Shown here in pieces: positions 32,531 through 59,509 of a stretch of DNA of 64,000 nt. Source of the stretch: a virus. Made by a program: the position numbers and the translations under genes. The notes beneath the pieces are model-generated. The model was not told the origin of the DNA. It ran no database searches and saw only the letters and a program-made list of their open reading frames with translations. The stretch's first letter is position 1. Each line of letters opens with the position of its first letter. The DNA is taken from positions 64,001 through 128,000 of IMG/VR virus record IMGVR_UViG_3300030090_007212; one strand, given 5' to 3'.

Positions 32531-33019
32531 TTAGAATACGTTGATTGCTCTATCGAACCTCAATGTACATGTGATATCCGCCAAGTCACTAGAAGAATAA
32601 TCCAACCCACCGAAATCTGCGTCGTTAAGTTGAGTTCCTTGAAGAATCCATTTTTGTACTACAACACCTGTAGGATCTAACATTTCTAATTCAACGTCTT
32701 TTTTGTATCCTGCTGCGTAACCTTGTCTACCTGTTACTGATTCAGAGTGAAGTCTTACCCACTCCATTAATGCTTGTGTTGCCGAAGGACCGATTGGATC
32801 TCTAAAGGTAACTGAAATAGTTTCCCATCTAAATCTACCAATAACAAAAGTCTCCGTATTTAAGAAAGGTATTGATACCTCATCACTTGTATATTTTGGT
32901 CGACTTGCTGTAGAAATCCACCATTCTTGAATACCTAATTCATCAGGAAATCTAAGAATCCATCTATTCTTTCTTAATGGTTCGTAAGGAACCGGCATTC
33001 TCATTAATAAATCTGCCAT
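32531..33019 (-). CDS. Tail tube protein (T4 gp19-like)
   Basis: 162 aa; 'EPLRKNRWILRF', 'GRFRWETISVTFRD', 'WILQG', 'DFGGLDY', 'TLRFD'. Confidence 0.9.
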   Translation of the reverse strand: MADLLMRMPVPYEPLRKNRWILRFPDELGIQEWWISTASRPKYTSDEVSIPFLNTETFVIGRFRWETISVTFRDPIGPSATQALMEWVRLHSESVTGRQGYAAGYKKDVELEMLDPTGVVVQKWILQGTQLNDADFGGLDYSSSDLADITCTLRFDRAINVF

Positions 33020-35665: not shown

Positions 35666-38485
35666 TTAAATATCATCAAAAGATGCACCAGTATTAGTAA
35701 TATTGAATTCTATGCTGATGTATTCTAATGTTCTAGTTGGTTTAATAAAGATTCTACCATTCAACTCATTTCTATCAATTGATTCTGGTGTATCATCTAA
35801 TACCACTCTAAAGTCAGTTAAACCTCTTTCTTTACGGATATTATCCAAAATTGGGTTAACTAATGAAAGGAATTGATTTCTTACAACCTCATCATTTTGT
35901 TCAAATAACAATCTGATAGAAACTGCAGATATAAGTTTTCTTGCTTGAAGTAAAAGTCTTCTAACATTAATTCTATTAAGTGCTGTTTCTTTTTGTTGTA
36001 ATGTTTTATTACCCCAAATTACTACTCCCACATCTGAGAATGTTGCCATTGGGTTAATCATACCTTCATAAAGAGTATCTCTTTGGTCTAAAGTCAATTT
36101 TAATCTCGCTTTAATTGCGTTTGTTGTACCTCTATTTAAACCTGCTGCTGCAAACCAAGGAAATGCAACGTTATCTGTTAATGCAATGTTTCTAACAACC
36201 TCTAATGTTGGTGGTAACCATACATATTGGTTATTTTCTGTATCATTCATCTGTAACCACGGCCAGTAAGTGGCAGAATAGTTACTGTCGATTCCTGCAT
36301 CTGCGATTAAATCAACCGCTTCTTCTGGATCAATTGCTTGTCCATCACTATCAGTATCCGGTGTAGTTAGGATATAAAGTGAATCCGCTCTATCAACTTC
36401 TACAACATCAATTGCATTTTCAATCAATCCTGTTTGATCTCTTACATCCAACCCTGGAGTTGCGAATACATTTATATTAACCGCTTCAGGATTATTGAAT
36501 GTGTATAAACCATCTAAGAATGCGTAATAATCAGAAGTGATTCCTTCATCTCCTTCACTTGTTACAAATGTTTGGAAAGTTCCTGCCAATAATCCTGCCG
36601 CACCATTAGTTCCAGCTTTTGTATAAGAATCTCCGTTAGTTCTTTCGGTTCTATATTCATCCCATCCATCATAACCACCAAATGGTGCAAATGTGAATTT
36701 TCTTGCCGCTAATTTTTCATAAGGACCACTAGTTACTGAAGCGTTACTCGTAAATGCCGATACACCTACTTGAAGTGCTGGGAAGTAACTATCAGCACCT
36801 GCCGATATTTCTGCTCCTTCTGCATTTACATCCATATGGAAACCATCTGTTCTTCCAGTATAAACACCATCATTAACTGCGTTTCTACCTTTATAATCGA
36901 AGTAATCTTGATCTACCCCTATAGAACTATTTAAACCTAAGTAAGTTTTTCTAAGTCTTGCAGTAGTTAATTGTCCGTATGCCGTCTTATATTCAATTTG
37001 TGGTGGTAAAGAAGTTCTTGTACCAATGTATTCCCTATTTAATACTCCCTCAAATCCTGCAGGGAAAGCATTGTGTGGGAAATCATCTGCCAATTCTACC
37101 ATCACATATTCACTACGTAATGGATATTCACCATCCGTAGTACCAATTTTTCTACCAATAAATCCATTATCTGTTGGATCCATTGTAATTTTTGAAAATT
37201 TCTCTACAGTTTGAATATTAGAATCTGTATCATTGAATTTTCTTACCAATAAATCAAATGTTCTTTCATCAGGTTTAATATTAACAATAGAGAATTTAAT
37301 GTCTTCATTCGCTGCGTTACCATCAGATATTGTAACGAATCTAAATAATCTTTGTAATACATTACCTCGTAGTTCTGATAATACATAAGGAGATGATGCA
37401 GATTTCCATTGTTCTTCATAATCATCTAAATTATTAGTGTCAGTAGATAATATTTCATTGAAAGTAATATCTAAACCTCTTACTTTACCTGCACTATTTA
37501 AATCATCTAATGTATTATAGTATAATTCCTCTACCCATAATTCAGTTTCTTTATCCTGTGTCTTACTACCGAATAAACCTGCAATATAGTTAGTTTTTGT
37601 TTTATCTAAAGATGTATCATAACTAAATGTGTTACCCGCTGCCGTTGTACCTGTAATTGTAAACGATGCGAATGGATTAGTAACGATATCATCAGTATTT
37701 GTCATTTCAGTTGCAGTAACCGTATAATCTAAGATTTGGTCACCACCATAGTCACCTCTAGATCTTAATGTTGCAACAACACTACCATCAATACTTGAAT
37801 CACAAGTTGCACTATATGTAACCACCGTACCTGATGTTACACCAGTAATTCCACCTGCAACACTTGATCCGATGGAAATAACCTCCATATCAAATGTTCT
37901 ACCTGTAAAATCACACCCTACTTTAATATACGCTGGATCATCTATTGAGAAATCATCACCTACAGTTGCATTACCAATATTAGTAAATGTAGAAGATATC
38001 TCCCCATCATCATATAAGTCTTGTAAACCACTACTAGCGTCAAATGTCATAGTAACTGGTGTACCACCTGTGGTTGCACTAAACGTTAATAACGGATCAT
38101 AAGAAGTAGTATCTGTTATACTTACTGTATCCGCATCAGGATTAGAGTCTAATGTAATACTCCACGCACTACCTGCCTTATAACCTGAATACCCCAATAC
38201 TCTACTTACATATAATTGGTTAGTTTGTGTAAGAAATGATTTTGCAATGTAATTTAATTCATATTTGTGAAAACCAGAACCTTTAAATTTCTCAGAATTC
38301 AAACCACCAAAATAATTCATGAATTCATTATAGTTTGAAATAAAGACTGGTTCAAATGCTGGCCCTTTCGGAGTTTCACCTACTAATCCTAATGTAGTGA
38401 CTCCTACTTGTCTTGTTACAAATGTTAAATCCTTTTCTGAGGTGAATACCCCCGGACTAACAAAAATTCTATCTGTCGATGCCAT
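35666..38485 (-). CDS. Contractile tail sheath protein (T4 gp18-like)
   Basis: 939 aa; 'FVSPGVFTSEKD', 'GETPKGPAFEP', 'YWPW', 'PWFAAAGLNRG', 'WGNKTL', 'RINVRRLL', 'IKPTRTLEYI'. Confidence 0.96.
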   Translation of the reverse strand: MASTDRIFVSPGVFTSEKDLTFVTRQVGVTTLGLVGETPKGPAFEPVFISNYNEFMNYFGGLNSEKFKGSGFHKYELNYIAKSFLTQTNQLYVSRVLGYSGYKAGSAWSITLDSNPDADTVSITDTTSYDPLLTFSATTGGTPVTMTFDASSGLQDLYDDGEISSTFTNIGNATVGDDFSIDDPAYIKVGCDFTGRTFDMEVISIGSSVAGGITGVTSGTVVTYSATCDSSIDGSVVATLRSRGDYGGDQILDYTVTATEMTNTDDIVTNPFASFTITGTTAAGNTFSYDTSLDKTKTNYIAGLFGSKTQDKETELWVEELYYNTLDDLNSAGKVRGLDITFNEILSTDTNNLDDYEEQWKSASSPYVLSELRGNVLQRLFRFVTISDGNAANEDIKFSIVNIKPDERTFDLLVRKFNDTDSNIQTVEKFSKITMDPTDNGFIGRKIGTTDGEYPLRSEYVMVELADDFPHNAFPAGFEGVLNREYIGTRTSLPPQIEYKTAYGQLTTARLRKTYLGLNSSIGVDQDYFDYKGRNAVNDGVYTGRTDGFHMDVNAEGAEISAGADSYFPALQVGVSAFTSNASVTSGPYEKLAARKFTFAPFGGYDGWDEYRTERTNGDSYTKAGTNGAAGLLAGTFQTFVTSEGDEGITSDYYAFLDGLYTFNNPEAVNINVFATPGLDVRDQTGLIENAIDVVEVDRADSLYILTTPDTDSDGQAIDPEEAVDLIADAGIDSNYSATYWPWLQMNDTENNQYVWLPPTLEVVRNIALTDNVAFPWFAAAGLNRGTTNAIKARLKLTLDQRDTLYEGMINPMATFSDVGVVIWGNKTLQQKETALNRINVRRLLLQARKLISAVSIRLLFEQNDEVVRNQFLSLVNPILDNIRKERGLTDFRVVLDDTPESIDRNELNGRIFIKPTRTLEYISIEFNITNTGASFDDI

Positions 38486-38618: not shown

Positions 38619-38777
38619 ATGAAAAGGACTAAAAATCTAAAGATTACACCTAAAACTCATGAATTACTTAAATCATATTGTGAAGATAATGGGTTAAAAA
38701 TGTTCGCCTTTGTAGAAAAAATAATAAGGGAAAAATGTATACCTAAAAAAGATATATATGGTGATGTAGTAAAATAA
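38619..38777 (+). CDS. Small ribbon-helix-helix-like DNA-binding protein (52 aa)
   Basis: MKRTKNLKITPKTHELLKSYCEDNGLKMFAFVEKIIREKCIPKKDIYGDVVK: beta strand, helix, G turn, helix pattern. Divergent from the sheath gene and followed by a terminator. Not in the ORF track. Confidence 0.75.
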   Translation: MKRTKNLKITPKTHELLKSYCEDNGLKMFAFVEKIIREKCIPKKDIYGDVVK

Positions 38778-38807
38778 AAAAAGAGGGAGATTTCTCCCCC
38801 TCTTTTT
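38776..38807. terminator. Bidirectional intrinsic terminator
   Basis: AAAAAAAGAGGGAGA-ttt-CTCCCCCTCTTTTT between convergent genes. Confidence 0.8.
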
Positions 38808-38848
38808 AAAGTGTTTATAAAACTTAATAGATTTACCTTAATAAACTA

Positions 38849-41776
38849 TTATTTTTTAACTTTAGCTTGTAGTGGTGTATAAACAATATCTACATAAGAC
38901 CCTTCAGCTTTTATAGCTTTTATAGTCTCATTTAACTCAGCGTGTACCTGCTCGTAGTTGGCTGCCATTGAGCCTGACCATATAGCTGGCATACTTGCTG
39001 TGTTGTAATTATCCCCTGGTCTCCCAGCGAATGTATTATTATCGTTCATTGCACTTGCAAGATATTGAGATAATCCTGGAGCGTTTGGATCCCAATTCAT
39101 TGCTTCCTCTAACATGCTGTGATAAGTATCAAAGTCACCACCAGCGGCAACTCCTTCTCTAACATGGTTATAGAAATTAATCATTGGACCATACTCTCTA
39201 ACTAAGTTTTCCAATCCTTTACGACCATTCACATATGATATAAACATTTGGAAAGGGTCAGGACCTAAACCAATACTACCTTCAAAAGTTAACCAAAATT
39301 CTCTTTTGATTTCTCCTTCAGATTTAGGTTCTTCAACTGGTGCATCTATAGGTTCTTCCACTTCACCTTCTTCTTTAATAGAATCTAGTTCCGCTTCCGC
39401 TTCTTTTAATGCCTTGGCAGCTTCCTCACCTTCAACAGCGGCCTGTTTATGCATATCCCTTACAGTTGCAACTTCTGCTTCTGCTTGAGATACCCATTCC
39501 TTATTATCTTCAGATGGGTCAGCATCATAAGCTTCTTTAGCAGCTTTAAGTTCCGCCTCTACTTTCTCTAACGTTTTACTAACAGAGTCATATTCTTTGT
39601 TAGCTTTGTCAGAAGCAGCTTGCGCCTCTTTAACTTCAGTTTCAGCCTTTTGGATTGCCTCTTTTCTAGCTTCTTCTTCAGCTTTCTTCTTAGCTTCTTC
39701 TTCAGCTTTCTTAGCATCTTCTTCAGCTTTCTTCTTAGCTTCTTCTTCAGCTTTCTTAGCTTCTTCTTCAGCTTTCTTAGCTTCTTCTTCAGCTTTCTCA
39801 ATCAAAGATTTGATATCTTTAATCTGACCTTCCAAAGTTTTCAATGAAGCATCTGCAATTGGAAGAAAAACTCCACCATTATCGACATATTCAGAAATTT
39901 CCTTTCTCTGACCTTCATATTGATTTAAAATAATAAGTAAGTCTTCAACATCCAACTCACCATTATGTTGAGGTGTGACTTCTAAGAACGCAGGAACAGG
40001 TTCAGGAGCCGGAAGTTCAACTCCACTCTCTAACTCTTTAATCTCCTCTTTTAAAGAAGATATTTTTTCCTGAAGTTCAGCATTTTCCTCATCCAATTGC
40101 GAAATTTCGTCCTCAAGAGTTACAATACTTTCTTTACTAGAAGATATGCTATCTTTAAGTTCATCAATTTCAGCTTTTGATTTAGAAATACTTTCATCAT
40201 ACTCAACTATAGATTTAATAGTCTCCGCTAAAGATTTTTGTGATTCATGAAGTTCTTTGGAATCTTCCTTTATCATATCCTCTAACTGAGCGAGTTTTGT
40301 TTCCATTTCTAAAAATTCAGGAGTATCTGGAGTTAAATCCTCTTCCATATGTTGTATCATCTTAGCTTTCTTTTCCTGCCTTTGAGCGAGTTCTTGAGTT
40401 TTCATGTCTATAGAATCTTCTATATCCACTTTTTGGTCATTTAAATCTCTTAAATCACTTTCACTCATTGCCAACTCAGTTTCTTTGGCATCTAAATCAG
40501 CTTCTCCATGCTCAACATCGTCTTTAGTTGCTGTAAGCTCATCTTGCTTTGCAGTAAGTTCAGTTTCTACCTCTTCTCTCTTAGTTTCATTCTCTTCTAA
40601 ACTTCCTTTAGCCTTAGCTAAAGCTATTAGGTTTAGTTTCCCATCAACTGGTTGGAAGGGTCCTTCCTGTTCTTTCTTCTTAGCTTCTTCTGCAGCTTTC
40701 TCCCTAGCTTCTTCTTCAGCTTTCTTCTTAGCTTCTTCTTCAGCTTTCTTCTTAGCTTCTCTTTCCGCTTCAACAGCTTCTTTTTCCGCTTTATACATAA
40801 GAATAGAGTTTTCATAACTTACAGCTTCTTTTTCAGCTTGTTTAACTATATACGACTCTCTCTCCTCATCCTGCATTTTTTCTAAAAGTTTCTCGAATTG
40901 TTCTTCAGACATACCCTCTTCTTTAGCTATAACTATAGCCTCTTCAATAATAGCGTCAGAAAAACCTTCTCGTGCTTCATCCTCAATATCAGATATTCTT
41001 TTTAGAAGAGTTGGTATTTCACCTTCTCCTTCTACTTGCATATCTGCATCAACAATTTTTTGTACTCGAAGTTGTATTTCTTGACTAACTATTCTTTTAC
41101 GAGAGCTTTCTATTGATCTACCAACAAATTCTTTAGAAGCCTCTAATGATTCTTCAATTACTTCGTCAATAGACATTTCTGCACCTTTAGATTTAACAGA
41201 AATTCTTAGTTTTTGCATTGTTTTTGTTCTTATAGCTTCTAACCCTTCTTCAATACCTTCATTTTCTACATCTGCTCTCACAGCTGCAACCAATGATTTT
41301 TGAAGATTATTCACTGCATTAAATGCGGCAAATAAAGTTGAAGATACGTCATCATTTTGGGATAAACGTTTAGACGCAGAAACACCAAAAAGGTCTTCCT
41401 TCTCTAAATTAACCCCACAAGCTTTAACTAAGTTAACTGTTGCAGTTTTTGCATCTTCTACAGAATCTCCATCATCCATGAAACCTTTAACCATTGTAGT
41501 TACTGGGGAAATATTCAGTGATATCTCAGTGTGACCTTTAAATACCTCTTTATTTTCCTCACCAGTCCAAACATTGGATCCACCTGATGCTTTGAATGAT
41601 CCACTATACCCTGCAGGTATTGCAAATTCACCCATTGAATTAGTGGTAGTTGTTTCACCAGTTTCAAATTCTATATCTGCACCCTCAATAGGAGCATCCT
41701 CTAATGTTCCTGTATCTCCGGTGTCGTCATCATCGCCACCGTCACCTTCTTGTTCGGCTTCAGTGTTTCCTATGAA
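38849..41776 (-). CDS. Long acidic coiled-coil protein with KKAEEEA repeats; probable -1 frameshift extension of 41770-43050
   Basis: The track ORF starts at 41635, but the frame stays open and protein-like for 47 more codons up to the slippery site at 41776-41782. Confidence 0.75.
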   Translation of the reverse strand, partial: FIGNTEAEQEGDGGDDDDTGDTGTLEDAPIEGADIEFETGETTTTNSMGEFAIPAGYSGSFKASGGSNVWTGEENKEVFKGHTEISLNISPVTTMVKGFMDDGDSVEDAKTATVNLVKACGVNLEKEDLFGVSASKRLSQNDDVSSTLFAAFNAVNNLQKSLVAAVRADVENEGIEEGLEAIRTKTMQKLRISVKSKGAEMSIDEVIEESLEASKEFVGRSIESSRKRIVSQEIQLRVQKIVDADMQVEGEGEIPTLLKRISDIEDEAREGFSDAIIEEAIVIAKEEGMSEEQFEKLLEKMQDEERESYIVKQAEKEAVSYENSILMYKAEKEAVEAEREAKKKAEEEAKKKAEEEAREKAAEEAKKKEQEGPFQPVDGKLNLIALAKAKGSLEENETKREEVETELTAKQDELTATKDDVEHGEADLDAKETELAMSESDLRDLNDQKVDIEDSIDMKTQELAQRQEKKAKMIQHMEEDLTPDTPEFLEMETKLAQLEDMIKEDSKELHESQKSLAETIKSIVEYDESISKSKAEIDELKDSISSSKESIVTLEDEISQLDEENAELQEKISSLKEEIKELESGVELPAPEPVPAFLEVTPQHNGELDVEDLLIILNQYEGQRKEISEYVDNGGVFLPIADASLKTLEGQIKDIKSLIEKAEEEAKKAEEEAKKAEEEAKKKAEEDAKKAEEEAKKKAEEEARKEAIQKAETEVKEAQAASDKANKEYDSVSKTLEKVEAELKAAKEAYDADPSEDNKEWVSQAEAEVATVRDMHKQAAVEGEEAAKALKEAEAELDSIKEEGEVEEPIDAPVEEPKSEGEIKREFWLTFEGSIGLGPDPFQMFISYVNGRKGLENLVREYGPMINFYNHVREGVAAGGDFDTYHSMLEEAMNWDPNAPGLSQYLASAMNDNNTFAGRPGDNYNTASMPAIWSGSMAANYEQVHAELNETIKAIKAEGSYVDIVYTPLQAKVKK
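39664..39798. repeat. Tandem 21/24-bp repeats encoding (K)KKAEEEA
   Basis: GCTTCTTCTTCAGCTTTCTT(CTT)A units; a second shorter array lies at ~40672-40760. Confidence 0.9.
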
Positions 41777-43050
41777 AAATTTACACCAAAAAGTGTATAA
41801 ACTGCTCCTGAGTCAGTAGCTACTGGAGTAAATGATACTACAGTTTCACCACCTTCTTCGTCATAGTTACATGCATCAACATTTGTTTGAATACCATTAA
41901 CAAATAATATTGCAGTTGAAGTCTCAACTTTTCCTTCTACAGAGAAAGAGTATGCTTCACCCTCAACAGCTTCAAACTCACCAGTTGAATGTCTGTAATC
42001 AGTGTTTTGTACACCTGCTCCAGCATTTGCTTCAACTGTATCAGTTAAGTCAGATATAGATCCTTCTAAGTCAGCTTTTGCGTCAGCTAATGCTTGTGCA
42101 GCTTCTTCAGCGTTTGCTTTGATTATAGCATCTTGTGAGTCTTGCTCTTCATCTACTTCAACTTTGAATGCTTTTATAGTATCATTGACTTCATCATGAT
42201 TTGCAGAAACAGTATCCGATAGATCAGATATAGCTGAATCTAATTCTTCTCTGTTTTGTGCATCTGCAGCTTCTAACTCATCTTTAGCATCTTTTAATGA
42301 TTGAGCAGCTTCTTCGGCGTTTGCTTTGATTGCTTTGTCTTGATCTGCTTGTCCATCTGCTGTTTCATCCATGAATGCTTTTAATGAATCATTGATTGCA
42401 TCATGATTTTCACTAACTTTAGTATCTAAAGAAGTAATAGAGTCAATAATCTCAGTATCCGCTAAGTTATAGGCATCATTTAATTCCTTAAGTGTATCCC
42501 AGTCAACTTCAGCACCATCAAGAATTGCACTAACTCTATCATCTACAGCTTTAACTGAAGCATCTAATTCAGATCTGTTTTGTGCATCTTTAGTTTCTAA
42601 CTCAGCTTTAGCATCTTCTAATGCTTTAGCAGCATCTTCAGCGTTTGCTTTGATTGTAGAATCTAATTCTTCTGTTGCGTCAGCTAATGCTTTAGCAGCT
42701 TCTTCAGCGTTTGCTTTGATTGTAGCTTCTTGTGATGTGAAATCTTCATCTACTTCAACTTGGAATGCTTTTAATGAATCATTGATTGCATCATGATTTT
42801 CACTAACTGTTGCAGTTAATTCAGCATGTTCTTGCTTTCTTTCTGCAGTGTCAGCTTTAGCAGCTTCTTCAACTGCTTCAATCGCCTCTTTTCTTCCTTT
42901 AATCTCTTCAGAAAGCTCAGCGATTTCATTTTCACCTAATACTATATCAAAATTAAAGTCGAATTTTCCATCTTCATTAAGTTGGATCTCTTTAATTTGA
43001 CCAATACCAGGACCTCTTCTTAGAGGATTTGGGTCTTGCATCATCATCAT
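41770..43050 (-). CDS. Coiled-coil fibre/whisker-like protein next to the neck genes
   Basis: 426 aa; repeated 'IKANAEEAA..L.DA' and 'VSENHDAINDSLKAF'; fibre-type motif 'ILDGAEVDWDTLKEL'; small C-terminal beta domain ('LFVNGI'). Confidence 0.7.
   Translation of the reverse strand: MMMMQDPNPLRRGPGIGQIKEIQLNEDGKFDFNFDIVLGENEIAELSEEIKGRKEAIEAVEEAAKADTAERKQEHAELTATVSENHDAINDSLKAFQVEVDEDFTSQEATIKANAEEAAKALADATEELDSTIKANAEDAAKALEDAKAELETKDAQNRSELDASVKAVDDRVSAILDGAEVDWDTLKELNDAYNLADTEIIDSITSLDTKVSENHDAINDSLKAFMDETADGQADQDKAIKANAEEAAQSLKDAKDELEAADAQNREELDSAISDLSDTVSANHDEVNDTIKAFKVEVDEEQDSQDAIIKANAEEAAQALADAKADLEGSISDLTDTVEANAGAGVQNTDYRHSTGEFEAVEGEAYSFSVEGKVETSTAILFVNGIQTNVDACNYDEEGGETVVSFTPVATDSGAVYTLFGVNFS
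42373..42808. repeat. 46-bp exact direct repeat 390 bp apart
   Basis: GAATGCTTTTAATGAATCATTGATTGCATCATGATTTTCACTAACT at 42373-42418 and 42763-42808. Confidence 0.9.
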
Positions 43051-43213: not shown

Positions 43214-43501
43214 TTACCTATAAACAAAGACTAAAACGTCATCAATTTGAAGGGAATAATCTCCTATCCATTTAATAGTGTGGAGATTTATTATATTATA
43301 ATCTTGTCCATAATTATAACGTATACCATTAATATATAATTCTGTTTTATTATATTCACTAACAGTAAGAGGGACAATACCCTCAAATAAAACTTGAGCA
43401 TCTATAGTGGGACTAAAAGTAACTGTTTCATATTTCCCTCCCCCTATAACAGTAATGTCACTAGGGTTTCTTACAATATAATTTTTTATAATTTTTTTCA
43501 T
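43214..43501 (-). CDS. Small putative structural beta-domain protein
   Basis: 95 aa; 'ELYINGIRY..GQDY...L..DD.L...Y' pattern; coupled to the upstream gene by an ATGA overlap. Confidence 0.7.
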   Translation of the reverse strand: MKKIIKNYIVRNPSDITVIGGGKYETVTFSPTIDAQVLFEGIVPLTVSEYNKTELYINGIRYNYGQDYNIINLHTIKWIGDYSLQIDDVLVFVYR

Positions 43502-44529
43502 TTCAATTTACCTTTTAAAGTCATATAGGCACTATTAGTAACTATAGTTTTATTTATAGTAATTGTTAAAACATCTCCATATTTTACATCATAAGGTAAT
43601 GTAACAGGAACCCCATTTAATTGAACAATGTAGGTATTAATATTTTCAACTTCTATTTCTTCGTATGTTGCATCAATATCTACAGTTAAATTGAACATGT
43701 TAACACCAGGATCAAATTGTATATTTAATTCAATTAACCCTTCTTTTTCTTGTTTGGTTATTTGATATGGTGCAAGATTTATATTTTCACTAACTTCATA
43801 AAATTGTATTCCTCTACTAATTGCAGGTTTAACTTTAAATTCATTTTCATCTAATAGATAACCTAACATTTTAATAGAATATAATTGAACATAATATCTC
43901 TTTTCATCAATATTATTAATCACACTTTCATCCCCAATACTATCTAATAATAAAGGTATGGGGTGACCATTTATACGCAAATATTTTTCACCTGCAGAAA
44001 AAGATTCTAACATCTTTTTATTAAAAATATTTAGATCTCTCATTTTATTACAAAATAACCTCACTTCATAGTTCATATCAATAGAAACTGGTTGAGGTAT
44101 TTGGTATACGTCATAACTTTTTATATTTCCATCCCATGTTGGTATTTTCATATAGGTGAATGTAGGTTTACCCGGTATATTGAATGCGCCAGCATAATTT
44201 GTCCCTACTTGTGCGTCAGGTTTTCTTACAATAGTTATAAAAGGAATTTTTATATTTTTATTTTCATCAGAAAATTTCCAAGTTTTTGCAAATTCTGCCC
44301 ATCTTTGAATACTTAAAAATATTACAGGAACTTCTTTACCACCTAAACTTAGATTAATAGAATTTTTCACATATTCAATAAAATCTCTATCCATATCTTC
44401 ATGAAGAATACTTTTAGGTAGATATGTACCATTATTAGCAATATTATCTAATATTTGTTGTCTCGCCGCAAATCCTGTTTTAGGAGGATTTATATTTAAA
44501 TTTTTTCTATAATTTTTAGGTAGTCCCAT
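43498..44529 (-). CDS. Tail terminator/sheath stabiliser (T4 gp15-like)
   Basis: 343 aa; 'VPVIF...QRW', 'PFITIVR', 'IPQPVSIDMNYEV'; neck-gene context. Confidence 0.65.
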   Translation of the reverse strand: MGLPKNYRKNLNINPPKTGFAARQQILDNIANNGTYLPKSILHEDMDRDFIEYVKNSINLSLGGKEVPVIFLSIQRWAEFAKTWKFSDENKNIKIPFITIVRKPDAQVGTNYAGAFNIPGKPTFTYMKIPTWDGNIKSYDVYQIPQPVSIDMNYEVRLFCNKMRDLNIFNKKMLESFSAGEKYLRINGHPIPLLLDSIGDESVINNIDEKRYYVQLYSIKMLGYLLDENEFKVKPAISRGIQFYEVSENINLAPYQITKQEKEGLIELNIQFDPGVNMFNLTVDIDATYEEIEVENINTYIVQLNGVPVTLPYDVKYGDVLTITINKTIVTNSAYMTLKGKLK

Positions 44530-44534
44530 CTTAA

Positions 44535-45056
44535 TTAAATACCTTTAAATTCATCTTCATCTACGGGTACACATGTCACAGTTCTGTAAAATCCTTTAAA
44601 ACCACCTATAGTATGTGTATTATCCGAGTTTATAATACCATTATTCGAAACGGTATAGTATTGGATTCTATCTTCTGTTTCTGAATAACCAATGTAATCC
44701 CCATAATTTATTTCTGCACCCAATTCTTGTAATTGTGCATCATATACACCAAAAACTAAATTACCATGTTCTAAATGTCTTAAAGAGCCATTAGGATTAT
44801 ATGATTCATTAATAGGTGTATTATTATTTAAAACAACAGTTAACTCTACAGGTTCTTTAAATCTTATTTCATTTCTTCCTGCCTCCCCATATATATCATC
44901 TGTAAGGGATTCTCCTTGTAACACTTGGAATAATATTACTTTAATATTTATATCACCTTCTAACCATTCTCTACCAAATTCTATCTGTAAATCAAAATCA
45001 TCTTGTGAAAAAAACTTATTTAACCTGGTTATAGGGATTTTTCTATTGTTTTTCAT
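44535..45056 (-). CDS. Neck/head-completion protein (T4 gp14-like)
   Basis: 173 aa; 'DDIYGEA...F.EPVEL', 'GDYI'; located between gp15-like and gp13-like genes. Confidence 0.6.
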   Translation of the reverse strand: MKNNRKIPITRLNKFFSQDDFDLQIEFGREWLEGDINIKVILFQVLQGESLTDDIYGEAGRNEIRFKEPVELTVVLNNNTPINESYNPNGSLRHLEHGNLVFGVYDAQLQELGAEINYGDYIGYSETEDRIQYYTVSNNGIINSDNTHTIGGFKGFYRTVTCVPVDEDEFKGI

Positions 45057-56353: not shown

Positions 56354-59300
56354 TTACACACCAGCGTAAATGATATAATTTAATACAATGTACGGTTGTA
56401 AATTATTGTGTGGTGAACCATTACTATTAGAAGAAGCCGCACCAACATCCATAGTATGGGTATGTTCCCCATCAGGATTTAATTTACCATTATTCATAGC
56501 CCAATTAGAATCTTTTTCATCTACATCACCATTAGGGTAATATTGGTGACCACCTGTAAATACGCTGTTCTTATATCCCGCATCTAACCCACCTAAATTT
56601 CTTTGTGCATTTAATCGTTTAGAGTGGTGTAAATTTATTACATTAGTGGCTTGTTCTCTATCATTTGTATTAGTTTGATAAGTGGCTTGACCATCATGTA
56701 CCCAACTAATTTCATGATGATGTTTACTACCACTATCATCATTAATTGTGTGAGTGTGTTCTTTATATGGTACTTCTGTATGACTTAATGTTACCGTTTT
56801 TTCACCACCCATATCACCTAAACTATTAAAATCACTATCACCATTATCTTTACCCACAGGTATTTTACCACTTAATAAGGGTACTCTAAAGTTATTTCCT
56901 CCATCTAATGACGAGTCATCACCTTTATTACCAGGATTGAATGAGGGTTCTACTTGCCCATAAGTAAAACCAATTACATTAAATAAAAGAAAATAGTCAT
57001 TAGGTTCATACGCTGCACCATCACACATTAACCAACCTGGAGGAGGAGTGTCACCAGCAAATTGTATTATACTACCTACAGGTACATTACTACCACCATT
57101 AGAAGAAGGCGTTTGCCAACTCGCCAATCCGTTAGCGTCTGATGTTAAAACTTTGTTATTACCTTGTGACCCATCTACTATTTTAATTTGTCCATTAATA
57201 TGTAAATCTACATCAGGTGAACTTTGATTAATACCTACCTTATCATTTGCAATGTCTATTGTCATTGTTTCTCTACTATCAGAAGGCCAAGATATGGAAT
57301 GACTTTGGAATGTTATTTTAGAATCAGATTGTAAAGATAATATAGCGGTATTGTCCCTATTAGTTGCACCTAATATGTTTATTTTGTTAATACCAGAATT
57401 CATTGCTACTGCGTTATAATCAATATTTTCACCATTATTGGTAAAATATGTAGTTAACTCTATCGCAATTTCTCCTTCTGGTTTTTCTGTAGTATTTGCC
57501 GCCCTAGTTTGCCAACTTGATGAACTATTCGCACCACCGCTCTGGGGTCTATGTTGAAGGATAACATTATTTGTTTTATTACCAACACCGGAAACACCAC
57601 CAAATGAAAATATACTATCATTACTAGTCATAGTTAAAACATCATTTCTATTAGTTTCTTTTAAGTGAGTAGTACCTTCCACAGATAATGAATGAGCACC
57701 TAATGGTCCAATACCACCTATACCAACTTGACCATTTTGTGCAGATAACGCCATAGTGCCGGGACTATTTATTAAATTAATAGCACCATTTGATTCTGTA
57801 TTCCAAATATAGAAATCCTCAGTTTTATCGCTAATAAAACCAACTTTTGCCTTTGTTCCTGCAGAGTCAGTATAATCAATAAAATTACCACCTGCATTAG
57901 CTATAGTTTCTAATGTTAGAATTGCATTATTATCTTTTACATGTAATTTACTTTGTGGGGTATCTTTACCAATCCCCACATTACCTGTTGGTTCGGAATA
58001 CATATCATTACCAGAAATTTTCCAATCCGCATCCGAACTATTACCTCCACCTGCCAATGAAGATAAATCGACATTATAATCTGTACCGGTGTTTAACCCT
58101 AATTGTAATATATTTCCCGCTAAGCTCGCACTGGCAAGATAAGTATCTGCACCCCCACCTGCCAATGATGATAAATCAATAGTTTGTTGTGGTGCTTCTC
58201 CACAACCATCTGGTGTGGAATGAACCAAAGTTAAAATGTTTGTGGCATCATCAAAAAGTAAATTAGAAACGTAATTATCTCTTATCAATTGACTAACATC
58301 GATGTCTATTTCACTCGCATCTGACATTATTAATTTTAAAATTTTAGTATTACACCTACCATTAGGGGTACCATCTAATAATCCTCCACTAACCAAATAT
58401 TTATCCTCACCTAAATCTACATTTTGTAACAAGGTAGATAAATCTTCCCACGATGCTAATCCACTCGCATCCGAAGTTAATACTTTTTCAACCCCTTCAC
58501 TCCCATCTACAATTTTAACTTGACCATCTACATGTAACTTACTATCTGGGGTTGAAGTTCCAATACCTACATTACCAATTGATCTATAAATGTTGTTTCC
58601 ACTAGGTTTAGGTGACCATAAATTAGTATCATCTAATAAATCTGAAAGATCTATTGATGAAACTGATGATCCATCACTTAATAATAAATCTAAATTAGTG
58701 CCATTTAATTGCCCCGAACTTACATATGTATTAGTATCGGCAACCATACCTCCTACTAACTCACTTAAATTTACTGTATTGCCGTTTGAAATAGTTAAAT
58801 CATAAGTACTCCCATTCCAAGTTAATTGTTGAAAATCTAAATCTCTATGGGTAATAGTAGATACTACTCTACCTTCACTATCAAGTAAGGATATTTCTGC
58901 TGTCTTACTATTATAAGATAATGTATAAGAATTATCTCGTATATCTTCCCATGTGGCTAAACCATCTGCGTCTGATGTTAAAACTTTATTGTTACCTTGT
59001 GTCCCATCTACTATTTTAATTTGTCCATTAAGTTGTGCGTAATTTTTTTCTCTATCGTTAGAATCTTTCCAAAGTAAAAATACTCTATCCCAATCAATAT
59101 CATCCCCTTCTACAAAACCGTCTTTTTGGTTACTAATATTAAACACATATCGTCCTCCACCATTTCCATAAAACGCCAATAACCCTGCATGTGCCTGATT
59201 ACTAGTAGGGTTATGTGAAAAAGGATAAGTAGTGTGACCAGACAATTCTAAATTCCCCTCAAAACTACCAGGTTCTTTAACTGCATTAAAAAGTAAACCA

Positions 59301-59509
59301 TGTGACCCCGACCAACTGTCTTGCACTAATTCAAAATACGTATTCCATGCCCCATCAGCAGCATTAAACGATAAAACATCATCCTGTTTAGATTTACGAG
59401 CACCTTTACCAAAATGTGCGCCGCCATATACTAGTAAGGTAGATTCTCCCGCATCATAAGTTCCCACACTTACTTTATTATTTACATTTAAGTTACCTAT
59501 TAGTTTCAT
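56354..59509 (-). CDS. Tail fibre protein with a C-terminal tail-collar domain
   Basis: 1051 aa; 'GNVGIGT..P..KLHV' units, three 'GQ.KIVDG..G..KVLTSDA.GLA.W' repeats, collar 'PVGSIIQFAG...GWLMCDG', ending 'HNNLQPYIVLNYII'. Confidence 0.88.
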   Translation of the reverse strand: MKLIGNLNVNNKVSVGTYDAGESTLLVYGGAHFGKGARKSKQDDVLSFNAADGAWNTYFELVQDSWSGSHGLLFNAVKEPGSFEGNLELSGHTTYPFSHNPTSNQAHAGLLAFYGNGGGRYVFNISNQKDGFVEGDDIDWDRVFLLWKDSNDREKNYAQLNGQIKIVDGTQGNNKVLTSDADGLATWEDIRDNSYTLSYNSKTAEISLLDSEGRVVSTITHRDLDFQQLTWNGSTYDLTISNGNTVNLSELVGGMVADTNTYVSSGQLNGTNLDLLLSDGSSVSSIDLSDLLDDTNLWSPKPSGNNIYRSIGNVGIGTSTPDSKLHVDGQVKIVDGSEGVEKVLTSDASGLASWEDLSTLLQNVDLGEDKYLVSGGLLDGTPNGRCNTKILKLIMSDASEIDIDVSQLIRDNYVSNLLFDDATNILTLVHSTPDGCGEAPQQTIDLSSLAGGGADTYLASASLAGNILQLGLNTGTDYNVDLSSLAGGGNSSDADWKISGNDMYSEPTGNVGIGKDTPQSKLHVKDNNAILTLETIANAGGNFIDYTDSAGTKAKVGFISDKTEDFYIWNTESNGAINLINSPGTMALSAQNGQVGIGGIGPLGAHSLSVEGTTHLKETNRNDVLTMTSNDSIFSFGGVSGVGNKTNNVILQHRPQSGGANSSSSWQTRAANTTEKPEGEIAIELTTYFTNNGENIDYNAVAMNSGINKINILGATNRDNTAILSLQSDSKITFQSHSISWPSDSRETMTIDIANDKVGINQSSPDVDLHINGQIKIVDGSQGNNKVLTSDANGLASWQTPSSNGGSNVPVGSIIQFAGDTPPPGWLMCDGAAYEPNDYFLLFNVIGFTYGQVEPSFNPGNKGDDSSLDGGNNFRVPLLSGKIPVGKDNGDSDFNSLGDMGGEKTVTLSHTEVPYKEHTHTINDDSGSKHHHEISWVHDGQATYQTNTNDREQATNVINLHHSKRLNAQRNLGGLDAGYKNSVFTGGHQYYPNGDVDEKDSNWAMNNGKLNPDGEHTHTMDVGAASSNSNGSPHNNLQPYIVLNYIIYAGV

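What the first reader, a model, noticed from the sequence alone, without database searches (positions are those of the whole stretch)
41636..41815. Probable programmed -1 frameshift extending a neck-linked fibre protein from 426 to ~1400 aa
Seen: the 41770-43050 gene ends GGT GTA AAT TTT TCA TAG, with a canonical X XXY YYZ heptamer A AAT TTT (41776-41782) one codon before the stop. The -1 frame continues without a stop as FIGNTEAEQEGDGGDDDDTGDTGTLEDAPIEGADIEFETGETTTTNS into the Met at 41635. The annotated Met falls in the middle of what looks like a single 'D.PI.GA......TTT...G.F' beta domain. GC-rich pairing potential lies downstream (CACTG with CGGTG; CGGTG with CACCG). Established: phages use -1 frameshifts to add C-terminal extensions to structural proteins. 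Inference: a minority long form carries a ~975 aa coiled-coil extension, which is unusually large.
Basis: partly seen in the sequence, partly recalled or inferred. Interest (0 to 1): 0.8.

Follow-up and report, generated by a model that had tools for sequence, protein, structure and literature searches.

The report
Likely frameshift joining two phage fibre genes
In an uncultured marine phage, a 426-residue fibre-like gene is followed by a 975-codon reading frame that has no normal start codon, so it is most likely reached by ribosomes slipping back one base just before the first gene's stop, which would give a rare 1,400-residue long form that has not been shown experimentally.

Summary
On the minus strand, the 426-aa ORF (43050..41770) ends GGT GTA AAT TTT TCA TAG. 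A_AAT_TTT lies at 41782..41776. The -1 frame is open from 41812 to 38849.

The 134-nt "spacer" before the annotated ATG (41635) is coding in that -1 frame:
- Its GC is 45%, against 5-28% in the 25 other inter-ORF gaps.
- Its codon-usage score exceeds 99% of true in-frame windows.
- A weak CarboxypepD_reg match spans the Met.

The -1 frame has no ATG, GTG or TTG upstream of that Met. The only alternative start is ATA (41773), which overlaps the TAG.

Three independent public assemblies bridge the junction without an indel. All nine upstream-protein relatives whose match reaches the C-terminus end in VNFS, including one only about 30% identical in that domain. No fused relative was found.

My best reading is a -1 programmed frameshift giving 425 + 975 = 1,400 aa (confidence 0.6). 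The main rival is (re)initiation at ATA.

Weak points:
- The heptamer class is common here (1.1% of codons) and is not avoided.
- The downstream hairpin is modest and starts 10 nt away.
- No relative's DNA could be fetched.
- There are no protein data.

This is a known kind of mechanism with an unusually large extension.

The parts
41770..43050 (-). Upstream ORF, 426 aa (P0001). It has a conserved N-terminal ~45 aa, a repetitive coiled-coil and a conserved C-terminal beta domain, and ends ...GVNFS-TAG.
   Evidence: The only Pfam match is a coiled-coil-type hit below cut-off. Relatives were found.
41773..42069 (-). Conserved C-terminal ~99 aa of the upstream ORF. It includes a beta domain that also matches internal repeats of long multi-domain proteins.
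   Evidence: Identity is 92-95% in P0010-P0012 and about 30% in P0018. All of these end in VNFS.
41776..41782 (-). Candidate slippery heptamer A_AAT_TTT, in X_XXY_YYZ phase with the upstream ORF.
   Evidence: H_HH.U_UU.Y is listed among the most efficient classes in E. coli (PMC4066793, passage seen).
41770..41772 (-). TAG stop of the upstream ORF, one codon (TCA) after the heptamer.
41813..41815 (-). TGA that closes the -1 frame upstream. Any shift must therefore occur between 41812 and 41770 (14 codons).
41771..41773 (-). ATA in the -1 frame overlapping the TAG (ATAG). It is the only NCBI table-11 alternative start codon in that frame ahead of the beta domain, and is the site of the main rival explanation.
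   Evidence: Read. The frame was checked.
41636..41769 (-). The so-called spacer. It is coding in the -1 frame: an acidic Gly/Asp/Thr-rich linker followed by the first strands of a beta domain.
   Evidence: GC is 0.448, against 0.05-0.28 in 25 other gaps. The codon log-likelihood is +62.7 bits, against an in-frame mean of 35 (sd 10.9, n=1092), and 0 of 2184 off-frame windows reach it.
41612..41701 (-). Weak CarboxypepD_reg-like match (PF13620, profile positions 10-44 of 82). It spans the annotated Met, with 22 of its 30 residues upstream of it.
   Evidence: E = 0.0033, 18.2 bits, below the 32.3-bit cut-off.
41633..41635 (-). ATG that ORF finders take as the start of the 928-aa ORF. It is probably an internal Met.
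   Evidence: The 25 nt upstream have GC 0.36, the highest (tied) of 40 starts. Real starts here have A/T-rich leaders.
41737..41765 (-). Predicted hairpin (5 bp, an internal loop, then 3 bp; -10.3 kcal/mol) that starts 10 nt after the heptamer.
   Evidence: z = -3.47 in a 40-nt window. It ranks 3rd of 212 in-frame heptamer sites and 1st of 14 A_AAT_TTT sites by 40-nt downstream MFE.
41719..41741 (-). Alternative hairpin CGGUG...CACCG (-8.6 kcal/mol). It cannot form together with the first hairpin.
38849..41776 (-). The -1 frame continuation: 975 codons plus TAA. Order of parts: linker, beta domain, helical region, long coiled-coil with EEAKKKA-type repeats, and a C-terminal ~175-aa domain of unknown fold.
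   Evidence: Relatives are P0003-P0007 and L002.
38775..38808 (-). Strong intrinsic-terminator-like hairpin (15 pairs followed by a T run) 41 nt after the downstream stop. It closes the two-ORF unit.
   Evidence: No promoter-like or terminator-like site lies between the two ORFs.

Best explanation
The two ORFs are one expression unit of a fibrous virion-module protein.

Proposed mechanism:
- Most ribosomes stop at the TAG (41770) and make the 426-aa short form.
- A minority slip back one base on A_AAU_UUU (41782..41776). An equivalent route is the Phe-tRNA alone slipping on U_UUU, which gives the same product.
- These ribosomes then read UUC AUA GGA... and continue for 975 codons.
- The result is a 1,400-aa long form. 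It has the short form's N-terminal anchor, coiled-coil and beta domain, then an acidic linker, a second beta domain, a long coiled-coil and a distal C-terminal domain.

Shown here:
- The geometry of the two frames.
- That the 134-nt 'spacer' is coding in the -1 frame.
- That the -1 frame lacks a canonical start.
- That independent assemblies show no indel.
- That relatives keep the stop position.

Inferred:
- That slippage is how the -1 frame is entered.
- That the nearby stop and the hairpin 10 nt downstream help.
- That the long form is a minor virion component.
For: 1. Frame geometry and the heptamer were verified.
2. The spacer is coding in the -1 frame:
   - GC is 0.448, against 0.05-0.28 in the 25 other gaps.
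   - The codon LLR is +62.7 bits, above 99.4% of 1092 true in-frame windows, and 0 of 2184 off-frame windows reach it.
   - The PF13620 partial match spans the Met.
3. The -1 frame has no ATG, GTG or TTG before 41635. The leader of that ATG is the most GC-rich (tied) of 40 starts, whereas real starts here have A/T-rich leaders.
4. A ~20-residue acidic linker ahead of the first domain fits an inter-domain linker better than a protein's N-terminus (inference).
5. A_AA.U_UU.U falls in H_HH.U_UU.Y, which is listed among the most efficient heptamer classes in E. coli. U_UU.U is the third-best tetramer (PMC4066793, passages).
6. A slip site followed by one codon and then UAG resembles pea enation mosaic virus G_GAU_UUU_UGG_UAG, where the stop matters (PMC5009743, passage).
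7. Contigs from 3 of the 4 runs laid (one DNA, two RNA libraries, three studies) bridge 41776-41782 with no gaps. The fourth run has no cover there. The substitutions at 41797 and 41812 are synonymous in the upstream frame.
8. All 9 relatives whose match reaches the C-terminus end in VNFS. One of them, P0018, is about 30% identical in that domain. No fused form appeared among 1.84 billion representatives.
9. The downstream 40-nt MFE of -10.3 kcal/mol ranks 3rd of 212 in-frame heptamer sites and 1st of 14 A_AAT_TTT sites.
10. No promoter-like or terminator-like site lies between the ORFs, and a strong terminator follows the second ORF.
Against: - In-frame X_XXY_YYZ heptamers are common here (212 of 19,030 codons), so there is about a 14% chance of one in the overlap.
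- A_AAT_TTT occurs in frame 14 times, against 15.6 +/- 2.8 expected from synonymous shuffling. It is therefore not avoided and is probably not very shifty on its own in the host.
- The hairpin is small. It starts 10 nt after the heptamer, whereas the usual spacing as I recall it is 5-9 nt. With a 60-nt window it ranks only 18th of 212. It has no covariation support, because the region does not vary in the runs laid.
- The AGGAG at 41809..41805 is 22 nt upstream of the heptamer. That is too far for a dnaX-type stimulator (recalled), and genes here show no Shine-Dalgarno use.
- The conserved VNFS(TCA)-stop would equally preserve the ATAG overlap.
- No DNA from a diverged relative could be obtained, so conservation of the heptamer itself was not tested.
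- There are no protein-level data.
- dN/dS between the window and L002 in the downstream ORF is about 0.9. Purifying selection on the extension is therefore not demonstrated, beyond its being kept open with in-frame indels.
Confidence: 0.6

Rival explanations
1. Termination-reinitiation, or weak de novo initiation, at the ATA (41773..41771) that overlaps the TAG stop. The ATAG overlap has the same geometry as the common ATGA stop/start overlap. This would give a separate 974-aa protein beginning (M/I)GNTEAEQ..., with no fusion product.
For: - ATA is the only NCBI table-11 start codon in the -1 frame between 41812 and the start of the beta domain.
- It overlaps the stop, so terminating ribosomes are already on site.
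- Its 25-nt leader is fairly A/T-rich (counted by eye).
- It would also explain why the spacer is coding.
- The conserved ...FS-stop in 9 of 9 relatives would preserve TCATAG as well.
Against: - The 40 ORF starts listed in the window are ATG (38) or GTG (2). The ORF listing offers only ATG, GTG or TTG, so this reflects common usage rather than a test of ATA.
- ATA is a very poor initiator in tested bacteria (recalled, not from a call).
- An independent protein that opens with a ~20-aa acidic disordered linker is unusual.
- A heptamer of an efficient class lies 3 nt upstream, with a local hairpin in the top 1.4% of sites.
Confidence: 0.17
2. These are two ordinary genes and the second starts at ATG 41635. 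The open, coding-like 134 nt upstream would then be a relic of an ancestral longer or fused gene and would not be translated.
For: - Gene callers started all 5 of 5 downstream relatives at this Met, including P0007, which is 85% identical over the 140-residue N-terminal region searched.
- There is an ATG with a long ORF.
- dN/dS of about 0.9 shows weak constraint in parts of the gene.
Against: - In a 31%-GC genome with intergenic GC of 5-28%, an untranslated relic would decay. Instead the spacer has GC of 45% and the best codon score of any frame.
- The Met lies inside the PF13620-like match, so a Met start would remove the first strands of the domain.
- The leader of this ATG is the least start-like of the 40.
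- The stop position is old, because it is shared with a relative about 30% identical.
Confidence: 0.08
3. The split is an assembly or sequencing indel, or there is a DNA-level length polymorphism in the T5 run. Most genomes would then carry one continuous 1,400-codon gene.
For: - The shift window contains A3T5.
- Logan contigs drop rare variants, so a minor T4 or T6 population cannot be excluded.
Against: - Contigs from three other runs in three studies bridge the site with 0 gaps, and no indel is listed within 41300-42137.
- Nine independently predicted relatives stop at the same residue.
- No fused form was found among 1.84 billion representatives.
- T5 is short for slippage errors.
Confidence: 0.04

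Closest known systems
Frameshift-made C-terminal extensions of phage structural proteins (T3/T7 capsid 10A/10B; Lactobacillus phage A2; Listeria phages A118, A500 and PSA), as summarised in Atkins et al. 2016 (PMC5009743, passages seen)
   Same: - One structural gene gives a major short product and a minor long product.
- The added part begins with an Ig-like or beta-sandwich type domain.
- The shift site lies just before the short form's stop.
   Different: - Those extensions are one small domain on capsid or tail-tube proteins.
- Here the extension is 975 aa, more than twice the size of the short form. It is itself a complete coiled-coil fibre with its own distal domain.
- No product has been observed here.
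Tail assembly chaperone G/GT-type conserved -1 frameshift (Xu, Hendrix and Duda 2004; seen only as a reference-list entry, otherwise recalled)
   Same: A -1 slip on an X_XXY_YYZ heptamer near the end of the upstream ORF sets a fixed ratio of two products with a shared N-terminus.
   Different: - G/GT lies between the tail tube and tape-measure genes and encodes small chaperones that are absent from virions.
- This pair lies upstream of the sheath gene, is very large and is fibrous.
Pea enation mosaic virus G_GAU_UUU_UGG_UAG site (PMC5009743, passage)
   Same: It has an N_NAU_UUU-type slip site followed by exactly one codon and then UAG. In that virus the stop contributes to shifting.
   Different: It is a eukaryotic RNA virus with a different ribosome. 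This is an analogy of layout only.
T4 fibritin (wac) and other neck or collar whiskers
   Same: It is a coiled-coil fibre with a small N-terminal attachment region and a C-terminal globular domain, encoded in the structural module of a distantly T4-like myovirus (sheath match).
   Different: - No sequence match to any fibritin or neck family was found (PHROGs gave 0 families for P0001; Pfam).
- Attachment to the neck is not shown.
- Fibritin is not made by frameshifting (recalled). The search found 0 papers containing both terms.

Membership tests
-1 programmed ribosomal frameshift site | An X_XXY_YYZ heptamer in phase with the upstream ORF, inside the overlap of the 0 and -1 frames | tested here: met
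   A_AAT_TTT lies at 41782..41776 and the overlap is 41812..41770. The chance expectation is about 14%.
-1 programmed ribosomal frameshift site | The -1 frame encodes a real protein segment that has no initiation codon of its own | tested here: met
   The spacer is coding in the -1 frame and has no ATG, GTG or TTG. Caveat: an ATA overlaps the stop.
-1 programmed ribosomal frameshift site | A stimulatory element at a suitable distance: a 3' hairpin or pseudoknot about 5-9 nt away, or a 5' SD-like element about 10-14 nt away (distances recalled) | tested here: inconclusive
   The hairpin is -10.3 kcal/mol and starts 10 nt 3' of the heptamer. It ranks 3rd of 212 sites with a 40-nt window but 18th with 60 nt. 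AGGAG lies 22 nt 5' of the heptamer. No covariation data are available.
-1 programmed ribosomal frameshift site | The slip site and frame arrangement are conserved in diverged relatives | tested here: inconclusive
   Only protein-level evidence is available. 9 of 9 relatives end in VNFS, including one about 30% identical. DNA of diverged relatives could not be fetched.
-1 programmed ribosomal frameshift site | A transframe product is observed | not testable with these tools
   No proteomic data or reporter assay is available.
Pfam PF13620 CarboxypepD_reg domain (N-terminal domain of the -1 frame product) | Score at or above the curated gathering cut-off | tested here: not met
   The score is 18.2 bits against a 32.3-bit cut-off, E = 0.0033, and the match is partial (profile positions 10-44 of 82). 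I treat it only as a sign of a beta-sandwich-like coding segment, not as family membership.
Tail assembly chaperone G/GT frameshift pair | Small ORF pair located between the tail tube and tape-measure genes | tested here: not met
   The pair lies upstream of the sheath gene (35666-38485), the tube gene is at 32531-33019, and the ORFs are 426 and 975 codons long.
T4 fibritin / neck whisker | Sequence or profile similarity to fibritin or neck-fibre families | tested here: not met
   PHROGs gave 0 families for P0001. The downstream ORF gave only weak coiled-coil-type hits to tape-measure families. tblastn against 50,697 phage records found no match.

The most novel reading that the evidence does not exclude
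A conserved -1 frameshift makes a fixed small fraction of a 1,400-aa chimeric chain, in which one complete coiled-coil fibre is extended by a second, exchangeable fibre. The distal half differs completely in P0007 and carries large in-frame deletions in P0003 and L002. If short and long chains co-assemble through their shared N-terminal coiled-coil, the phage would display a few long, variable 'reach' fibres among many short ones. That would be the largest frameshift-added extension known to me for a phage structural protein, and a new way of combining a conserved anchor with a swappable distal module.
Probability: 0.3. Interest if true: 0.65.

Novelty: new variant of a known kind. Interest (0 to 1): 0.5.

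Why it matters
If this is real, gene callers systematically mis-annotate the locus. All five downstream relatives in the protein database start at an internal Met, which cuts off a linker and part of a domain.

It would also extend the known use of frameshifting in phage structural genes. The known cases add one small decoration domain. This case would append a whole second fibre, nearly 1,000 residues long, whose distal end differs between relatives.

The phage sequence is held by runs from 11 studies, most of them marine, so its adsorption apparatus is of ecological interest.

The practical value is a clear, cheap test: a tagged expression or dual-reporter construct covering about 200 nt.

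Tried and rejected
**DNA of diverged relatives.** I could not obtain any.
- Protein-pattern scans of IMG/VR with P0001, the 975-aa frame, P0018, P0007 and alignment A3 gave only L002. That contig starts inside the downstream ORF and lacks the junction.
- My own degenerate DNA patterns gave nothing in IMG/VR.
- The JGI metagenome scans gave no relative or 6 chance hits in non-coding frames.
- The GTDB genome scans gave 2 chance hits and no relative.
- blastn and tblastn against GenBank phages found no match for either ORF.
- The relatives found as proteins come from a source whose DNA I could not fetch. The tool that would fetch it is closed and I did not call it.

**Structure prediction.**
- Single-sequence AlphaFold2 of the 120-aa junction-proximal segment failed (pLDDT 36.1).
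- The C-terminal 175 aa also failed (pLDDT 39.1).
- No fold search was run.

**Other searches with no useful result.**
- The ESM Atlas search of the 110-aa junction-proximal segment gave no named relative scoring 0.9 or more; one cluster scoring 0.85 has PF13620 on 13% of its members. The search of the C-terminal 175 aa gave no usable hit.
- The PDB sequence search and NCBIfam gave nothing.
- No paralogue of either junction domain exists in the 138.5-kb record.
- Rfam (0 families at gathering threshold) and tRNA scans of the window were empty.
- Earlier-findings look-ups returned nothing.

**Run coverage.** Run X4 has no cover over 41776-41843, so it says nothing either way.

**Explanations rejected.**
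- Stop-codon reassignment. Reading through the TAG in frame 0 gives a stop-ridden, non-protein-like sequence with LLR of -51.8 bits.
- Transcriptional slippage. The run is only A3T5 and the RNA contigs carry the genomic length. Minor species cannot be seen in contigs.
- The upstream AGGAG as a dnaX-like stimulator. It is 22 nt away, and the genome shows no SD use.

**Literature.**
- Searches returned 4, 0 and 82 papers (12 listed). From the listings, and from the passages of PMC9965538 that I read, none described a frameshift in a fibritin-like or fibre gene. I did not open the other listed papers.
- The measured value for A_AA.U_UU.U itself is in Sharma et al.'s figure and supplement, which I could not see. 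Only the class statement was read.

Full report
**Setting.** The window is bases 64001-128000 of a 138.5-kb IMG/VR virus record.
- It is AT-rich (31% GC).
- It carries a contractile-tail structural module and replication genes: a 939-aa tail sheath (35666-38485), a tail tube (32531-33019), a tail-fibre-like protein (56354-59509), a DNA polymerase and an SNF2 helicase.
- The sheath's best GenBank matches are only 30-37% identical. They include Microcystis phage Mel-JY01, an uncultured 484-kb phage and T4-like cyanophages.
- The stretch around the finding is held by public runs from 11 studies, most of them labelled marine metagenome.
- Nearly all genes, including those of the finding, lie on the minus strand.

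- One search shows the minus-strand text ...GGT GTA AAT TTT TCA TAG GAA ACA.... The ORF 43050..41770 translates to 426 aa ending GVNFS.
- The -1 frame is closed by TGA at 41815..41813. From 41812 it is open to the TAA at 38849.
- It reads ...KFFIGNTEAEQEGDGGDDDDTGDTGTLEDAPIEGADIEFETGETTTTNSMGEF....
- A_AAT_TTT at 41782..41776 is in X_XXY_YYZ phase. A slip there gives 425 + 975 = 1,400 aa.
- The ORF listing places the first ATG, GTG or TTG of the -1 frame at 41635.

**Is it more than chance?**
- The heptamer by itself is not. In 40 ORFs, 212 of 19,030 codon positions carry an in-frame X_XXY_YYZ (1.1%). A 14-codon overlap therefore contains one about 14% of the time.
- A_AAT_TTT itself occurs in frame 14 times, against 15.6 +/- 2.8 expected after synonymous shuffling. 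It is not avoided.
- What stands out is what follows. This is the only one of the 212 sites with a long -1 frame (975 codons; the next longest is 34).

**The 'spacer' is coding in the -1 frame.** This is the most secure result.
1. Its GC is 0.448. The other 25 gaps between listed ORFs have 0.05-0.28, and ORFs average 0.31.
2. I trained a codon model on the 38 other ORFs. The 45 spacer codons score +62.7 bits in the -1 frame, -51.8 in the upstream frame and -128.3 in the third frame. True in-frame 45-codon windows average 35.0 (sd 10.9, n=1092; 99.4% score lower). None of 2184 off-frame windows reaches 62.7.
3. Pfam gives a weak partial CarboxypepD_reg match (E = 0.0033, 18.2 bits, below the 32.3-bit cut-off). 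It covers residues 26-55 of the post-slip translation, so 22 of its 30 residues lie before the Met.
4. The 25 nt before ATG 41635 are the most GC-rich (tied, 0.36) of 40 start contexts. Real starts here have A/T-rich leaders without Shine-Dalgarno motifs.

So translation must enter this frame upstream of the Met, and no canonical start is available there.

**Is it an assembly error?** That is unlikely.
- I laid Logan contigs from four runs in four different studies.
- Three have a contig bridging the site with zero gaps: X8 (DNA, 41300-42053), X10 (RNA library, 41300-41918) and X19 (RNA library, 41355-41845). X4 has no cover over 41776-41843.
- No insertion or deletion is listed below 42138.
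- The substitutions near the site are at 41796, 41797 and 41812. By my reading of the codons, 41797 and 41812 are synonymous in the upstream frame. The change at 41796 gives Thr to Ala, the same variant seen in proteins P0009 and P0011.
- Contigs hide rare variants, so a minor T4 or T6 population is not excluded.

**Relatives.**
- Nine predicted proteins match through the last residue of the upstream ORF. They are P0008, P0009, P0010, P0011, P0012, P0018, P0019, P0020 and P0021. All nine end ...VNFS.
- Their coiled-coil parts differ in length and sequence. The full-length proteins are 350-425 aa, and P0009 is 57% identical overall.
- P0018 is only about 30% identical in the C-terminal domain yet shares the last four residues exactly. 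This suggests constraint on the end of the ORF, but it is protein-level evidence only.
- Rows left out of this count:
  - P0013 is a 113-aa protein whose match stops at query residue 65.
  - P0014-P0017 are long proteins, 27-32% identical to the query. P0014's sequence shows the matched domain as an internal repeat.
  - P0022 is an N-terminal fragment.
- The unrestricted HMMER search of 1.84 billion representatives found no fused form.
- For the downstream ORF, 5 of 5 relatives were called from the same Met. P0007 is 85% identical over the 140-residue N-terminal region searched and has an unrelated C-terminal half. P0003 has a large internal deletion.
- L002 is a partial IMG/VR relative. It differs by in-frame indels and gives dN/dS of about 0.9. 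The extension is therefore kept open but is not under visibly strong purifying selection.

**Mechanism.**
- In E. coli reporter work, H_HH.U_UU.Y heptamers are listed among the most efficient classes. U_UU.U is the third-best tetramer when a pseudoknot follows (PMC4066793, passages only). The specific value for A_AA.U_UU.U is in a figure or supplement that I could not see.
- The layout of slip site, one codon, then UAG also occurs in pea enation mosaic virus, where the stop matters (PMC5009743, passage).
- Downstream, the minimum-energy fold has a hairpin at 41765..41737 (-10.3 kcal/mol; z = -3.47 in a 40-nt window; 1 of 200 shuffles folds as well).
- By 40-nt downstream MFE it ranks 3rd of 212 in-frame heptamer sites and 1st of 14 A_AAT_TTT sites. 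With a 60-nt window it ranks only 18th.
- The hairpin starts 10 nt after the heptamer, slightly beyond the usual 5-9 nt (recalled). Seven nucleotides separate the UCA codon from the hairpin, so a P-site-only slip of tRNA-Phe on U_UUU with UCA in the A site is also conceivable. That route gives the same protein.
- No promoter-like or terminator-like site separates the ORFs. A 15-pair terminator follows the second ORF. The pair therefore looks like one transcription unit.

**Main rival.**
- The -1 frame codon ATA at 41773..41771 overlaps the TAG (ATAG). This is the geometry of the familiar ATGA coupling.
- (Re)initiation there would also explain the coding spacer and the conserved ...S-stop.
- I rate it lower for four reasons. 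ATA is a very poor start (recalled). All 40 listed starts here are ATG or GTG. An independent protein that opens with a 20-residue acidic linker is odd. An efficient-class heptamer with a locally unusual hairpin sits right there.
- The other rivals, a Met 41635 start with a relic spacer and a DNA indel, conflict and respectively.

**What the protein is.**
- It is fibrous and coiled-coil-rich. Pfam and PHROGs give only coiled-coil-type hits below cut-off.
- It lies between two genes weakly similar to the two that precede the sheath region in Mel-JY01 (E = 2e-5 and 0.027) and the sheath gene. In Mel-JY01 there is no such pair at that position.
- 'Neck-linked' is therefore not supported by any test. 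'Accessory fibre cassette in the tail/neck gene block' is as far as the evidence goes.
- Both AlphaFold attempts failed.

**Verdict.**
- The sub-claim that the frame upstream of the annotated Met is translated is strong (about 0.9 in my judgement).
- Entry by -1 frameshifting is the best explanation, at about 0.6.
- The kind of mechanism is known: a frameshift-made long form of a phage structural protein. The size and nature of the extension would be unusual.

Noticed in passing
window 42050-42300 (coiled-coil repeats of the upstream ORF): This stretch is highly polymorphic between public runs. There are many substitutions, contigs that skip 108-110 nt or go back 207 nt, and very high summed depth. 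Relatives of the protein range from 350 to 426 aa. It looks like repeat-number variation in the coiled-coil, in contrast with the near-invariant 41300-41918 block around the junction.
   Followed up: partly
downstream ORF 38849-41776 and proteins P0003, P0007, locus L002: The distal part is modular. P0007 is 85% identical over the 140-residue N-terminal region searched and then has a completely different 800-aa C-terminal half. P0003 lacks about 320 internal residues, and L002 has in-frame indels. dN/dS between the window and L002 is about 0.9.
   Followed up: partly
window 38775-38808 (-): A very strong intrinsic-terminator-like hairpin (15 pairs, then a T run) lies 41 nt after the downstream ORF. 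It sits in a 363-nt gap before the sheath gene.
   Followed up: no
whole window: Gene starts have extremely A/T-rich leaders: 25-nt GC is 0-0.20 for 33 of 40 starts. No Shine-Dalgarno motif is visible. Stops are TAA in 33 of 40 ORFs, TAG in 4 and TGA in 3. This suggests a host with SD-independent initiation. I made no host assignment.
   Followed up: no
window 43498-45056 (-) versus L003 7095-8620: The 343-aa and 173-aa ORFs upstream of the fibre pair weakly match the two ORFs that lie one small gene before the sheath in Microcystis phage Mel-JY01 (E = 2e-5 and 0.027). The fibre pair is absent there, so it looks like an inserted cassette.
   Followed up: partly
G000 (the whole record): IMG/VR classes the record as a 'provirus' and 42% complete. 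The window, however, shows only phage structural and replication genes typical of a large lytic myovirus. I did not examine the ends of the record.
   Followed up: no
window 27135 (-) and 4722 (-): Two other in-frame A_AAT_TTA heptamers have downstream 40-nt folds at least as stable as the finding's (-11.3 and -11.7 kcal/mol; the first reaches -17.6 over 60 nt). Neither is among the ten longest -1 frames listed, so each is followed by fewer than 16 open -1 codons.
   Followed up: no
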